From Naegleria gruberi (lineage: Eukaryota): a stretch of 5,237 bases of DNA. Positions within the stretch are counted from its first letter, which is position 1. Every line of letters begins with the position of its first letter. The stretch is from the NCBI GenBank assembly GCA_000004985.1, contig GG739166.1; one strand, written 5' to 3'. Of the stretch, positions 1-4,998 are shown in pieces. Under the pieces are notes generated by a model. The model made no database searches. It was not told the DNA's origin and saw nothing but the letters and a program-made list of their open reading frames with translations. A program made the position numbers and the translations under genes.

Positions 1-1
1 A

Positions 2-1040
2 CTGAAAAGAGACAGAGAACTTGTTTTAGAGGCTATTAAGTATAATGTTGATGTTTTGAAATATTGTCCTGATGATATGATAAGTGATAGAGAAATTATT
101 ATGAAAGCAGTCCAGACTGATGGATTTGCCACTTCAATATGCATCAAAACAATTACAACATGACAGAGAAATAGTACTTCTTGCCGTTAAGAATAATGGA
201 AAGAGTCTAAAATATAATTACATTAATAAACATGACAAAGAAATAGCAATGGAAGCTGTTAAGCAAAATGGCCTTGCACTTCAACATGTATGTCATTATT
301 TAAGAGACAAAGAAATTGTATTGGCAGCTATTAAACAAAACATGAGTGCTTTTGAATTTGCATCTATTGAGATAAAAAATGATAGAGAACTTGTAATGGA
401 ACTAGTTAAGAAATGTGGATGGATGTTTGAATATGCCTCAAAACAACTAAGAGGTGACAGAGAAATTGTAACAGAAGCTATTAACCGACATGCTGACATT
501 GTTTATAAACATGTATCAAAGGAATTAAGAAATGACAGACAGTTGGCAATGATAGCAATTAAAAACCATGCATGTTTACTTGCATACGCATCAGAGGAAA
601 TTAGAAATGACAAGGAAATTGTAATGGAAGCTATTAAGGGTAAAAGAGAAACGCTCAAAATGGCATCTAATTAATTGAGAAGTGACAAGTCATTTATTTT
701 AGAACTAGTTCAACAAAATTCAGAAATGCTAAAATATGCCTCTGATGAATTGAGAAACGACAAGGAATTTATATTGGACGTGGTTAAAAAAAGAGTATCT
801 ACTATCAAATATGCCTCTTATGATTTGAAAAATGACAGAGAGTTTATTCTAAATGCTGTGAAACTAAATGCAAAGGTTTTAAAATATGCCTCTGATGATA
901 TACTAAGCAAGAGTTTTACAAATGATAGAGAAATTGTATTGGCGGCAATGAAGCAAGATATCAACACCTATGCATATGCCTCTAATGAGGTAAAAAATGA
1001 TAGAGCAGTTTTATTAGAAATATTGTTTAAGATAGAAACT
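2..1040 (+). repeat. intragenic coding tandem repeats (~75-nt units, about 14 copies) of the DUF4116-like motif
   Basis: The peptide motif YAS..(L/I)(R/K)NDREIV..A(V/I)K.NG recurs every ~25 codons. At the nucleotide level there are shared blocks: aaaatatgcctctgatga at 731-748 and again at 881-898, and aaatatgcctct at 807-818. Each pair is offset by multiples of 75 nt. Confidence 0.7.
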
Positions 1041-1052
1041 TGTTTTATTTAG
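2..1052 (+). pseudogene. DUF4116-like tandem-repeat protein gene, 5'-partial, disrupted by a +1 frameshift and an in-frame stop
   Basis: Translating from nt 2 (frame 2) gives LKRDRELVLEAIKYNVDVLKYCPDDMISDREIIMKAVQTDGFA, then runs into TSICIKTITT and a stop at 161-163. Frame 3 from 120 gives (M)DLPLQYASKQLQHDREIVLLAVKNNG..., which continues the same ~25-aa repeat (units 72-78 nt; consensus LKYAS-ELRNDREIVLEAVKQNG-A, about 14 units in all). Removing one C from GCC at 128-130 joins ...DGFA to LQYASKQL... in a single repeat register. A TAA at 672-674 sits exactly where the other units have E/Q/D (ASN*LRSDK versus ASDELRNDK, ASKQLRGDR, ASEEIRNDK), so it looks like a single GAA/CAA to TAA substitution. 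The repeat continues in frame to 1052. The first residue of track ORF 675..1052 is a TTG codon, an artefact of alternative-start calling. Confidence 0.55.
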
Positions 1053-1133: not shown

Positions 1134-1382
1134 TCAGCACTGACAACAAAGAACACAAATCCAACTCATATTTTCTGTAACAATTTCTGAATTCATCCAT
1201 TTAGAAAGTGACAAGTTTACACCTGTTGGCAATTCATGCATTACCTTTTGAATTTGATTCACGTGATTACCATCCATTCCCTTTTCGAATGGTTTACCAG
1301 CAGTATCAAAGATATGATATTCATGACCATTAGAGGAACCAAGATGAACATGTTCATTGTGTTGTTTTGGGTGTAAAACATG
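1134..1382 (-). CDS. orphan His-rich ORF fragment (82 codons, no start codon; first in-frame ATG at 1277..1275 would give 47 aa); possible gene remnant
   Basis: Minus-strand frame open from 1382 to the TGA at 1136..1134: HVLHPKQHNEHVHLGSSNGHEYHIFDTAGKPFEKGMDGNHVNQIQKVMHELPTGVNLSLSKWMNSEIVTENMSWICVLCCQC*. It is preceded by an in-frame stop at 1385..1383, and its upstream side runs directly into the tandem duplication and the F-box gene start. The composition is protein-like rather than low-complexity. Confidence 0.2.
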   Translation of the reverse strand, partial: HVLHPKQHNEHVHLGSSNGHEYHIFDTAGKPFEKGMDGNHVNQIQKVMHELPTGVNLSLSKWMNSEIVTENMSWICVLCCQC

Positions 1383-1458
1383 TTAATTTAAAAGTCAAGG
1401 AGCAATTTCATAATTTGTTAATTTAAATTGTAAAAGTCAAGGATCAATTTCATAATTT
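1382..1458. repeat. tandem direct duplication (35-nt unit, then a 42-nt copy with a 6-nt insertion and 1 mismatch) immediately upstream of the F-box gene ATG
   Basis: Copy 1 is gttaatttaaaagtcaaggagcaatttcataattt (1382-1416). Copy 2 is gttaatttaaattgtaaaagtcaaggatcaatttcataattt (1417-1458). AAAAAA and the ATG at 1465 follow. Confidence 0.8.
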
Positions 1459-3273: not shown

Positions 3274-3927
3274 TTAGTTAATTTTTACAGCTTTAATTGG
3301 GGTTTCGAATTGGAATGGATCAAATATTTCAGAGCTGGTATCAATCAACATACTTTCTCTTTCAAGTTGAATCAAAATTCCCTCAACAATACTTCCAGCA
3401 AGATAATCCAACTTTCTAATAGTTGACTGTTGATGATTCTGATAATTTACAAGTGGATAACAGCAGGCTTGACCGCTAATAACTTGTTGAATCCTTTCTG
3501 AACATCTCTTAAAAGCAGAACTGTTTAAAAGAAAGTTCTGAGCTGTTTCTGGATCGACTGAATCATTAAATTGTTGAATTTTAGTATCATCAGCAATCGT
3601 ATCCAATTTGGTAATGGCAAAGGCAACAACTCTTCCCATTTCTCTGGCACTTTCGTGCAAAACTTTGAGTTTTTCCAAGAAACCAGGAGTGAAACAATCT
3701 TCAAATGTCAACATCAACAATACAGCATTGCTTGCTCTCGAAAGATCACTTTCACTAACACTTGGATCATTCTTGGATTGACCAAATTTAAGCATGCCCT
3801 CCAATAAACATTTAAAGCGATCAACTTGCAAATTATCTGAATTGAAATCCCAACCAAAAATATCATTGATTGAGATCTTCTCAGTAAGTGGATAATTATT
3901 AACACTCATGGTAGTATGATCTTGCAT
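3274..3927 (-). CDS. dynamin-superfamily-like protein with a degenerate P-loop (217 aa from the ATG at 3927; alternative ATG at 3909). The ORF is open further upstream to 4119 through N/T/I-rich low-complexity sequence.
   Basis: Collinear matches to the dynamin GTPase domain. Near the N-terminus, EKISINDIFGWDF aligns with the region just after the P-loop, GKSSVLENFVGRDF. Further on, GRVVAFAITKLD matches the G4 region QRTIGVITKLD (TKxD). Then CYPLVNYQNHQ matches GYIGVVNRSQ. The canonical GxxxxGK(S/T) is replaced by YPLTEKIS (both Gly lost, Lys kept), and the switch I/II (G2/G3) region appears deleted. The segment 3928..4119 encodes MKLNRVSIIVNITFEPNILITFTNNTIITITSRSRN..., which looks like AT-rich non-coding sequence, and it contains the AACGTG motif cluster. 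Confidence 0.5.
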   Translation of the reverse strand: MQDHTTMSVNNYPLTEKISINDIFGWDFNSDNLQVDRFKCLLEGMLKFGQSKNDPSVSESDLSRASNAVLLMLTFEDCFTPGFLEKLKVLHESAREMGRVVAFAITKLDTIADDTKIQQFNDSVDPETAQNFLLNSSAFKRCSERIQQVISGQACCYPLVNYQNHQQSTIRKLDYLAGSIVEGILIQLERESMLIDTSSEIFDPFQFETPIKAVKIN

Positions 3928-4019
3928 TTGGATTGTAGTAAGTTCTTGGAATTTGAAACATTTTTTTGTTGTTGAGTTTTGTTTTCTTTCGGTGTGTTTG
4001 TGTATTAAAAGATTTCTGG

Positions 4020-4084
4020 AACGTGAAGTTATTGTAATAATTGTATTATTAGTAAACGTGATAAGTATATTTGGTTCAAACGTG
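4020..4084 (+). promoter_or_regulatory. three direct copies of AACGTG(A) (4020-4025, 4055-4060, 4079-4084), the last two as identical 10-mers aaacgtgata spaced 24 nt apart. Candidate cis-regulatory sites in the divergent promoter region.
   Basis: Direct sequence repeats. The second and third copies are each followed by an A/T-rich (taa/caa)taattg-like block. Confidence 0.3.
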
Positions 4085-4274
4085 ATATTTACAATAATTG
4101 AAACTCGGTTGAGTTTCAACAGATTTTCATCTCGGATTCATTTTCAAAAAATCGTAAGAGATAAGGGGAATCAAGTAATTGAAGAAGATGGGTCTTTCTA
4201 ACGTATGTGCCTGTACATTTAAATGAAAGAGAAAATTATAACAAGTTAATAGAAAACAATGAATTTTTTTTAGA

Positions 4275-4344
4275 AAGCACGTTTCTTTTACTTTACTCAA
4301 GCACCTTTCTAATGGTTTAGAATGGAGGTTGTGTTTATCACGTT
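4275..4344 (+). promoter_or_regulatory. two copies of CACGTT (4278-4283, 4339-4344), the reverse complement of AACGTG, and a 12-mer repeat aagcac(g/c)tttct (4275-4286, 4309-4320) upstream of the ATG at 4423
   Basis: Same ACGT-core hexamer as at 4020-4084 but in inverted orientation. They lie 80-145 nt upstream of the start of gene 4423. Confidence 0.3.
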
Positions 4345-4422
4345 TTGGTTAACTAATAGTAAAAAAACAAACACCATCCTAAAGAAACTAAACTCAACAA
4401 CCGAAACATTAACCAAATAAGA

Positions 4423-4774
4423 ATGTCTTCCCCAACCCACTATGCTTGCCTTGAATCCAACAACTCAAAATTCAGATTTGCCTATCATGAATCTTTCTCA
4501 TCCCAACAATCTGGGAAAGTATTCTTGATTGACTTTGAAAATTCTGTCAAGTATATGAATGGCAATTGTCCTCTTGAAGTCATCAATACAAAGGTTTTTA
4601 CTCAATTGGTAAGTGGACTTGTTTCAGTCAAGATTTCAGACGAAACTCAAGGAGTCATTGAACTCACCATTGGAACCAAGTGTTTGAAATTGGAAAAGAC
4701 TGAAATTACAAGTCAAGATTTCCTTCAAGAACAGGTTTACTTATTGGAGAAGAAGTTTGAAAGAATGCTCAAAG
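4423..4774 (+). CDS. exon 1 of a two-exon gene encoding a hypothetical protein with a coiled-coil-like C-terminus (167 aa after splicing)
   Basis: ORF from the ATG at 4423. A canonical splice donor GTAAGT sits at 4775-4780 immediately after ...ERMLKG. The unspliced frame stops at 4783-4785 inside the putative intron. The start context is aaataagaATG. Confidence 0.55.
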
Positions 4775-4824
4775 GTAAGTTGTAGCCATTTCGAATACTT
4801 TGATTGAAAACAACTTTTTAAAAG
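4775..4824 (+). other. putative 50-nt spliceosomal intron (GTAAGT ... TTTTTAAAAG), phase 1
   Basis: Donor gtaagt at 4775-4780. Acceptor AG at 4823-4824 preceded by a T/A-rich tract. Splicing G(4774) to AA(4825-4826) creates a GAA codon and continues in frame for 48 more codons to the TAA at 4971-4973. Confidence 0.5.
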
Positions 4825-4973
4825 AAAATGATAACAAGATTAAAAGTTTGAATGATGAAGTTAATAGCTTAAGAGCAATGAATGAAGAATTGGTTCTAGC
4901 TGTGAGAACCAAGAACGAAGAACCTGTTCAACCAGTTGCTGAAGAAGTTCCACCAGTTGTTGCTGCAGAATAA
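4825..4973 (+). CDS. exon 2 of the spliced gene (…ENDNKIKSLNDEVNSLRAMNEELVLAVRTKNEEPVQPVAEEVPPVVAAE*)
   Basis: The frame +2 relative to exon 1 is open from 4779 to 4973. Its heptad-like charged composition continues the coiled-coil character of the exon-1 C-terminus (QDFLQEQVYLLEKKFERMLKG). The E/V/P-rich tail is not AT-rich junk. AATAAA lies 20 nt downstream at 4993-4998. Confidence 0.5.
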
Positions 4974-4992: not shown

Positions 4993-4998
4993 AATAAA
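4993..4998 (+). promoter_or_regulatory. AATAAA poly(A)-signal-like hexamer 20 nt downstream of the stop of gene 4423..4973
   Basis: caAATAAAaaacc. Confidence 0.3.

What the first reader, a model, noticed from the sequence alone, without database searches (positions are those of the whole stretch)
4423..4973. Two-exon gene: canonical GTAAGT donor, 50-nt intron, phase-1 junction restoring a 48-codon coiled-coil-like tail
The unspliced ORF ends 3 codons into a perfect GTAAGT. The +2 frame is then open from 4779 to the TAA at 4971-4973. Joining at G|GTAAGT...AAAAG|AA recreates a GAA codon. The downstream peptide (ENDNKIKSLNDEVNSLRAMNEELVLAVRTKNEEPVQPVAEEVPPVVAAE) matches the charged and heptad character of the exon-1 end. 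AATAAA follows 20 nt after the stop. This is the only intron I can support in the window, consistent with an intron-poor genome. It is also the main evidence against a prokaryotic origin.
Basis: partly seen in the sequence, partly recalled or inferred. Interest (0 to 1): 0.5.

Follow-up and report, generated by a model that had tools for sequence, protein, structure and literature searches.

The report
Annotated two-exon Naegleria gruberi gene

Summary
The ORF at 4423-4785 stops three codons into AAG|GTAAGT. Removing 4775-4824 (50 nt, GT..AG, phase 1) joins it in frame to an open frame ending at the TAA at 4971-4973, giving a 166-aa protein.

That protein is 100% identical to an annotated Naegleria gruberi NEG-M protein (NAEGRDRAFT_76816 / NAEGRDRAFT_81432; EFC35533.1, EFC38985.1). 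The neighbouring gene is NAEGRDRAFT_76815, recorded on a contig of 5237 bp, which is the window's length. The intron is therefore already in the public gene model.

Independent support for the splice:
- In a near-identical metagenome copy, similarity runs from the 5' flank to 12 nt past the TAA and then stops. Its two exon-2 indels are each 3 nt.
- A paralog annotated without the intron keeps 113 of 117 exon-1 residues, plus one inserted residue, but only 5 of 12 "read-through" codons.
- Codon usage favours only the proposed exon-2 frame.
- A predicted helix (98-148) runs across the junction.
- A GTAAGT-type extension this long arises at about 0.07% of simulated ORF ends.

I found no transcript evidence. 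The protein has no credible relatives outside Naegleria and no assignable function. Interest is low; the feature is already known.

The parts
4423..4774 (+). Exon 1 coding part: ATG to the first base (G) of the split GAA codon. It encodes residues 1-117 plus one base.
   Evidence: ORF listing and translation. Identical to residues 1-117 of N. gruberi P0002. Codon-usage score is +0.26 bits per codon in this frame and negative in the other five.
4772..4780 (+). 5' splice site AAG|GTAAGT. The exon ends at 4774 and the intron starts at 4775.
   Evidence: Read from the sequence. GTAAGT is kept in the metagenome copy L001. The paralog P0001 reads ...K G K L here, which fits GGT AAG TTG.
4775..4824 (+). 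Spliceosomal intron: 50 nt, GT..AG, phase 1, 28% GC.
   Evidence: Removing it gives exactly the annotated 166-aa protein. Its length is not a multiple of 3. It carries in-frame stops, and its codon-usage score is not positive in any forward frame. The paralog's read-through peptide lines up codon for codon with a 50-nt intron but matches at only 5 of 12 codons.
4783..4785 (+). TAG that ends translation if the intron is retained, giving a 120-aa product.
   Evidence: L001 has a stop at the same place, giving GKF*.
4800..4804 (+). Candidate branch site TTGAT (fits YTNAY). The A at 4803 lies 21 nt upstream of the 3' splice site.
   Evidence: Pattern read from the sequence only. Not tested. ACAAC at 4810-4814 is an alternative.
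4815..4824 (+). T-run and 3' splice site TTTTTAAAAG|. This AG is the first one after intron position 11.
   Evidence: Of 68 formal GT-AG pairs that reach the same stop codon, 4775/4824 has the best donor, the shortest intron and the longest product.
4825..4973 (+). Exon 2 coding part: the last two bases of GAA, 48 codons and the TAA stop (residues 118-166).
   Evidence: Identical to P0002 residues 118-166. Codon-usage score is +0.58 in this frame against -0.67 and -0.91 in the other forward frames. The two indels relative to L001 are +3 and -3 nt. Predicted helix, with pLDDT above 90 over residues 121-140.
4993..4998 (+). AATAAA, a possible polyadenylation signal.
   Evidence: Read from the sequence. 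L001 has an AATAAA in its unrelated 3' flank. This is weak evidence in an AT-rich genome.

Best explanation
Positions 4423-4973 are the coding part of the Naegleria gruberi NEG-M gene NAEGRDRAFT_76816. An identical product is annotated a second time, as NAEGRDRAFT_81432, on a 304-kb scaffold.

The gene has two coding exons separated by one ordinary U2-type GT-AG intron (4775-4824, 50 nt, phase 1). The spliceosome removes the intron, joining G4774 to A4825. The mRNA then encodes a 166-aa protein with three parts: a beta-rich N-terminal region (about residues 1-90), one long helix (about 98-148) that spans the exon junction, and an acidic, proline-rich tail.

If the intron is retained, translation stops at the TAG at 4783-4785 after 120 residues.

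What is shown: the sequence anatomy, the identity to the annotated model, and conservation patterns that fit exon-intron-exon. What is inferred: that splicing really happens, which branch site is used, and that the helix oligomerises. The protein's cellular role is unknown.
For: 1. The spliced product equals P0002 (166 aa; EFC35533.1, EFC38985.1; XP_002668277.1, XP_002671729.1) at every residue.

2. The minus-strand neighbour at 3277-3927 equals EFC35534.1 (NAEGRDRAFT_76815), recorded on a contig of 5237 bp, the window's length.

3. Metagenome copy L001, region by region:
- exon 1: 348/352 identical
- intron: 49/50 identical
- exon 2: only a +3-nt and a -3-nt indel plus 2 substitutions
- 3' flank: 10/12 identical for 12 nt past the TAA, then about 39%
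The conserved unit therefore ends at the exon-2 stop, not at the exon-1 stop.

4. Paralog P0001 matches exon 1 at 113 of 117 residues, with one extra residue. Its annotated read-through (GKLSAIRIILLITTI*) stops at the TAA of TTTTTAAAAG and matches the window's intron translation at only 5 of 12 codons after GKL. Conservation drops right at the donor.

5. Codon usage marks only the proposed exon-2 frame as coding.

6. The simulated chance of such an extension is 0.07% per ORF end.

7. AlphaFold2 predicts a single helix over residues 98-148, across junction 117|118.

8. N. gruberi has spliceosomal introns: 1.7 exons per gene, mean intron 203 bp (PMC8296547). Short introns are usual in the related Acrasis kona, at 9-95 bp (PMC11589745).
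Against: - I could not reach any transcript or peptide evidence. The exact 166-aa sequence is held only from annotation-derived sources, and no paper in the library names the locus tags.
Both follow the same splice-site logic.
- L001 is 98-99% identical, so it gives few informative substitutions.
Its intron was inferred from the annotated read-through peptide.
- The heptad register is not continuous across the junction.
Confidence: 0.9

Rival explanations
1. The intron is mostly retained. The real product would be the 120-aa unspliced protein, and the downstream open frame would be unused or used only in a minor isoform.
For: The paralog NAEGRDRAFT_73210 is annotated unspliced at 133 aa. A metagenome gene caller also reported the 120-aa form, though that caller does not model introns. 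Intron retention is reported as the most common form of alternative splicing across eukaryotes, N. gruberi included (PMC6142364).
Against: - Exon 2 keeps its frame through two 3-nt indels.
- Exon 2 has the strongest codon-usage signal in the locus.
- The conserved block ends just after the exon-2 stop.
- The read-through codons are poorly conserved between paralogs.
Confidence: 0.06
2. There are two separate small genes: the 120-aa ORF, and an independent small ORF in 4800-4973 with its own start codon.
For: the ORF listing reports a 57-aa ORF at 4800-4973 with a TTG start.
Against: - TTG is not a usual eukaryotic start codon.
- The first in-frame ATG is at 4879, leaving only 31 codons. Yet the frame is open and coding-like from 4825.
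- Only 14 nt would separate the TAG from the TTG, leaving no room for a promoter.
- The public annotation joins the two parts.
Confidence: 0.01
3. The intron is real, but a different splice-site pair is used, for example donor 4775 with acceptor 4860. That would remove 12 more codons.
For: 68 formal GT-AG pairs reach the same stop codon, 10 of them using the 4775 donor.
Against: - 4824 is the first AG downstream of the candidate branch site and T-run.
- It gives the shortest intron and keeps all of the coding-like sequence.
- Residues 118-129 are identical in L001.
Confidence: 0.03

Closest known systems
Naegleria gruberi NEG-M gene models NAEGRDRAFT_76816 and NAEGRDRAFT_81432 (EFC35533.1 / EFC38985.1; UniProt D2VVZ0), 'hypothetical protein'
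   Same: The 166-aa product is identical, so the exon-intron structure is the same. The neighbouring gene is identical to NAEGRDRAFT_76815, recorded on a 5237-bp contig.
   Different: Nothing differs. This is the same gene. Assigning 76816 to this scaffold rests on its accession and locus-tag numbers being adjacent to 76815, which is an inference.
Paralog NAEGRDRAFT_73210 (EFC38933.1, D2VW11), 133 aa
   Same: It matches at 113 of 117 exon-1 residues and has the same G-K-L codons at the donor.
   Different: It is annotated without the intron and reads through to the TAA at the end of the intron-equivalent 50 nt. This is probably a mis-annotation that lacks exon 2.
Ordinary short U2-type GT-AG spliceosomal introns of heteroloboseans
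   Same: It has a consensus MAG|GTAAGT donor, an AG acceptor after a T-run, and a YTNAY-like motif 21 nt upstream. It is AT-rich, has a length that is not a multiple of 3, and contains in-frame stops.
   Different: At 50 nt it is shorter than the N. gruberi mean of 203 bp. It lies within the range reported for the related Acrasis kona, 9-95 bp. Nothing about it is unusual.

Membership tests
U2-type GT-AG spliceosomal intron | GT at the 5' end within a donor consensus (MAG|GTRAGT) | tested here: met
   AAG|GTAAGT at 4772-4780. GTAAGT is conserved in L001.
U2-type GT-AG spliceosomal intron | AG at the 3' end, preceded by a pyrimidine-rich stretch | tested here: met
   TTTTTAAAAG| ends at 4824, and this AG is the first one after intron position 11. 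The pyrimidine tract is short, at 5 T.
U2-type GT-AG spliceosomal intron | Branch-site motif 15-40 nt upstream of the acceptor | tested here: inconclusive
   TTGAT at 4800-4804 fits YTNAY, with its A 21 nt from the acceptor. This is a pattern match only. I had no Naegleria branch-site consensus to compare with.
U2-type GT-AG spliceosomal intron | Removal restores one continuous reading frame, and the intron itself does not look coding | tested here: met
   The spliced CDS is 501 nt and 166 aa. The intron is 50 nt, has in-frame stops, and has no positive codon-usage score in any forward frame. The paralog's read-through codons match at only 5 of 12.
U2-type GT-AG spliceosomal intron | The spliced junction is seen in RNA | not testable with these tools
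   No N. gruberi transcript data could be reached. The exact 166-aa product is held only from annotation-derived sources. Metagenome scans found nothing.
Annotated N. gruberi gene NAEGRDRAFT_76816/81432 | Identical protein sequence and genomic context | tested here: met
   100% identity over 166 aa. The neighbouring gene has an exact match on a 5237-bp contig.
Coiled-coil protein | A long helix with continuous heptad (a/d) hydrophobic periodicity | tested here: inconclusive
   The predicted helix covers residues 98-148, with pLDDT above 90 over 121-140. Hydrophobic residues fill 71% of a/d positions in the exon-1 part and 67% in the exon-2 part, but in registers that differ by 3. No dedicated coiled-coil predictor was run, and oligomerisation was not tested.
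XRCC4/SAS-6-like proteins (beta head plus coiled-coil stalk) | The head-domain fold matches family members | tested here: inconclusive

The most novel reading that the evidence does not exclude
This may be a Naegleria-restricted orphan gene family with at least three copies in NEG-M and two in an environmental relative. The conserved 50-nt intron carries an early in-frame stop and could act as a switch: regulated intron retention would toggle between a full-length protein and a 120-aa form lacking the second half of the helix and the acidic tail. The N-terminal domain might also be a new fold. Nothing here tests either idea.
Probability: 0.05. Interest if true: 0.3.

Novelty: already known. 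Interest (0 to 1): 0.07.

Why it matters
It matters little beyond quality control. The result shows that reading the raw sequence alone recovered a correct eukaryotic gene model and the correct kind of genome.

Two small practical points follow:
- The paralog NAEGRDRAFT_73210 is probably mis-annotated. It reads through the equivalent intron and lacks exon 2.
- The 5237-bp scaffold looks like a partly degraded duplicate of a region on the 304-kb scaffold.

The protein remains an uncharacterised gene restricted to Naegleria.

Tried and rejected
1. Homologs outside Naegleria.
- The word-indexed search returned only the paralog cluster.
- A full phmmer search of 1.84 billion representatives gave three more hits, all to giant repetitive proteins. 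Their scores come from many weak repeated stretches, and their Pfam hits are equally scattered. I rejected them as spurious.
- Pfam gave nothing above its thresholds.
- PDB sequence search gave nothing below E = 0.25.

2. More genomic copies or spliced transcripts in JGI metagenomes. Both the protein-pattern scan and a degenerate exon-2 DNA pattern found nothing.

3. Fetching N. gruberi DNA for the paralog or the 304-kb copy. There were no records for P0001, P0002 or the window ORFs.

5. An upstream mini-exon (ATG GGT CTT TCT AAC|GTATGT at 4189-4209, with a TTTTTTTTAG acceptor ending at 4272). The spliced frame stops after 12 more codons. The donor also lies in an 80-nt segment that is missing from relative L002. 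I dropped the idea.

6. Literature. No paper in the library names the locus tags or describes Naegleria splice-site consensus. The 2010 genome paper is not held.

7. Rfam found no RNA family in the window.

Full report
**1. Observation**

The window is 5237 bases with 32% GC. An ATG at 4423 opens a 120-codon ORF that ends ...CTC AAA GGT AAG TTG TAG, with the TAG at 4783-4785.

GTAAGT occupies 4775-4780 and is preceded by AAG. The second forward frame is open from 4779 to the TAA at 4971-4973.

Removing 4775-4824 joins G4774 to AA at 4825-4826, giving GAA. The removed piece is 50 nt, starts GTAAGT, ends TTTTTAAAAG and has 28% GC. AATAAA lies at 4993-4998 and starts 20 nt after the stop. Every coordinate in the finding is correct.

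**2. Is it more than chance?**

GTAAGT on its own is not informative. It occurs 5 times in the window against 2.1 expected, and 10 of 200 shuffles reach 5. One copy lies inside exon 1 at 4609 and is lost through a synonymous change in a relative.

The combination is rare. I generated random sequence with the window's dinucleotide content. A GTAAGT within 9 codons of an ORF end, plus an AG 30-250 nt downstream that continues the frame for at least 48 codons, occurred at 0.07% of ORF ends. The figure is 0.11% for GTRAGT and 14% for any GT. A random frame stays open for 49 or more codons 2.5% of the time.

68 formal GT-AG pairs reach the same stop codon. Of these, 4775/4824 has the best donor, the shortest intron and the longest product. 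It also uses the first AG after intron position 11.

**3. What it is**

A search with the spliced product returned a Naegleria gruberi cluster. Three members are relevant:
- P0002 is 166 aa and identical to the spliced product at every residue. It is 'hypothetical protein NAEGRDRAFT_81432' / 'NAEGRDRAFT_76816' (EFC35533.1, EFC38985.1, XP_002668277.1, XP_002671729.1, D2VVZ0).
- P0001 (NAEGRDRAFT_73210) is a 133-aa paralog annotated without the intron.
- P0003 is a 120-aa product called on a metagenome contig.

The minus-strand neighbour at 3277-3927 is identical to EFC35534.1 (NAEGRDRAFT_76815). That protein is recorded on a contig of 5237 bp, which is the window's length. The window is therefore a whole small scaffold of the N. 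gruberi NEG-M assembly. By adjacency of accession and locus-tag numbers, the gene is NAEGRDRAFT_76816. An identical product is annotated on a 304-kb scaffold.

Other genes in the window fit a Naegleria origin: an F-box protein and a DUF4116 repeat array. N. gruberi has 33% GC, 1.7 exons per gene and a mean intron length of 203 bp (PMC8296547).

**4. Independent support for the splice**

*(a) Metagenome contig L001* (ENA ERZ929261) carries a near-identical copy. Its identity to the window by region is as follows:

| Region | Result |
|---|---|
| 5' flank | 178/185 identical, plus a 9-nt indel |
| Exon 1 | 348/352 identical |
| Intron | 49/50 identical; still has an in-frame stop |
| Exon 2 | One +3-nt indel, one -3-nt indel, 2 substitutions |
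| First 12 nt after the TAA | 10/12 identical |
| Next 100 nt | About 39% identical |

Beyond that point L001 runs into a different, convergent gene. The conserved unit therefore ends at the exon-2 stop, not at the exon-1 stop. Both exon-2 indels keep the frame.

*(b) Paralog P0001* matches exon 1 at 113 of 117 residues, with one extra residue. Its annotated read-through, GKLSAIRIILLITTI*, lines up codon for codon with the window's intron translation, GKL*PFRIL*LKTTF*. It ends at the same TAA inside TTTTTAAAAG, so the paralog's intron is also 50 nt. Only 5 of the 12 codons after GKL match. Protein-level conservation collapses exactly at the donor.

*(c) Codon usage.* I trained a codon table on the window's other ORFs. 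It scores exon 2 at +0.58 bits per codon in the proposed frame, against -0.67 and -0.91 in the other forward frames. Exon 1 scores +0.26. The intron is not positive in any forward frame, and both flanks are negative in all six frames.

*(d) Structure prediction.* Single-sequence AlphaFold2 predicts one helix over residues 98-148, spanning junction 117|118, with pLDDT above 90 over residues 121-140. The N-terminal beta-rich part is modelled poorly.

**5. Limits**

No RNA or peptide evidence was reachable:
- The 166-aa sequence is held only from annotation-derived sources.
- Look-ups for encoding contigs failed.
- Two metagenome scans found nothing.
- No paper in the library names the locus tags.

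The 'coiled-coil' label is only partly supported. Hydrophobic residues fill 67-71% of a/d positions in each half, but the best registers differ by 3.

The candidate branch site, TTGAT at 4800-4804, is a pattern match only.

**6. The protein**

No Pfam family passes threshold, and no PDB sequence scores below E = 0.25. A full phmmer search of 1.84 billion representatives found only the paralog plus three giant repetitive proteins, whose scores come from many weak repeated stretches. I treat those three as spurious.

The best description is a small protein restricted to Naegleria. It has a beta-rich head, a helix of about 50 residues that probably oligomerises, and an acidic, proline-rich tail. 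Its function is not assignable from these data.

**7. Rivals**

- *Predominant intron retention giving a 120-aa product.* This cannot be excluded without RNA data. It is disfavoured by the coding signatures of exon 2 and by where the conserved block ends.
- *Two separate ORFs.* This is very unlikely. The first in-frame ATG of the downstream frame is at 4879, only 14 nt separate the TAG from the TTG 'start', and the frame looks coding from 4825.
- *An alternative acceptor such as 4860.* This would delete residues that are conserved in L001.

**8. Verdict**

The feature is an ordinary spliceosomal intron in a gene model already in the public N. gruberi annotation. Novelty: already known. Interest is low.

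The decisive test is to map N. gruberi RNA-seq (PRJEB23822; PMC6142364) across 4774|4825.

Noticed in passing
window 3928-3960 (minus strand), compared with L002:380-1243: The neighbouring GTPase-like gene lacks 176 nt in this scaffold. In L002, P0008 and P0009 that stretch encodes the P-loop (APSNVGKSS). The length is not a multiple of 3. The gap is flanked by the near-repeat GCAAGATCA / GCAGATCA. The upstream ATG (MFQIPRTYYNPNARS...) is now out of frame, and the public model NAEGRDRAFT_76815 starts at the ATG at 3927, just after the gap. This looks like a deletion allele or a decaying duplicate.
   Followed up: partly
window 1-1052 (+): An array of DUF4116 repeats (Pfam E = 1e-84 and 2e-44) is interrupted twice. 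There is a 1-nt frame break near 148 (…AVQTDGFA / LQYASKQL…). There is also an in-frame TAA at 672-674, where the repeat pattern expects a sense codon (MASN*LRSDK). This could be a pseudogene, a degraded duplicate or assembly errors.
   Followed up: no
window 4020-4085 and 4338-4344: AACGTGA occurs four times, all inside the region between the two divergent genes. The whole window is expected to hold 0.36 copies, and 0 of 200 shuffles reach 4. These may be transcription-factor sites of a bidirectional promoter.
   Followed up: partly
window 3968-3979 (-) and 4390-4401 (+): The 12-mer AAACTCAACAAC occurs exactly twice in the window. The copies lie 10 nt and 21 nt upstream of the upstream ATG of the GTPase-like gene (3957) and of the ATG at 4423, each in that gene's sense orientation. 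It may be a shared leader or promoter element (pair I1, 53).
   Followed up: partly
window 1389-1416 and 1431-1458: A 28-nt direct repeat, TAAAAGTCAAGG(A/T)(G/T)CAATTTCATAATTT, is 96% identical between its two copies, which start 42 nt apart. It lies just upstream of the F-box gene's ATG at 1465 (family D10).
   Followed up: no
window 1134-1376 (minus strand): An open frame (…HVHLGSSNGHEYHIFDTAGKPFEKGMDGNHVNQIQKVMHELPTGVNLSLSKWMNSEIVTENMSWICVLCCQC*) has no in-frame ATG near its 5' end. It could be a terminal exon or a degraded gene.
   Followed up: no
paralog NAEGRDRAFT_73210 (P0001; DNA not in the window): The public 133-aa model reads through the intron-equivalent 50 nt and stops at the TAA just before the acceptor AG. 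It is probably mis-annotated and missing its second exon.
   Followed up: partly
L001 and L002 (ENA ERZ929261, PRJEB11402): One environmental metagenome holds two slightly different copies of the region upstream of this gene. L002 has a 10-nt deletion and substitutions relative to L001. The relative therefore also carries the locus in at least two copies, and L001's copy has a different downstream neighbour from the window's.
   Followed up: partly
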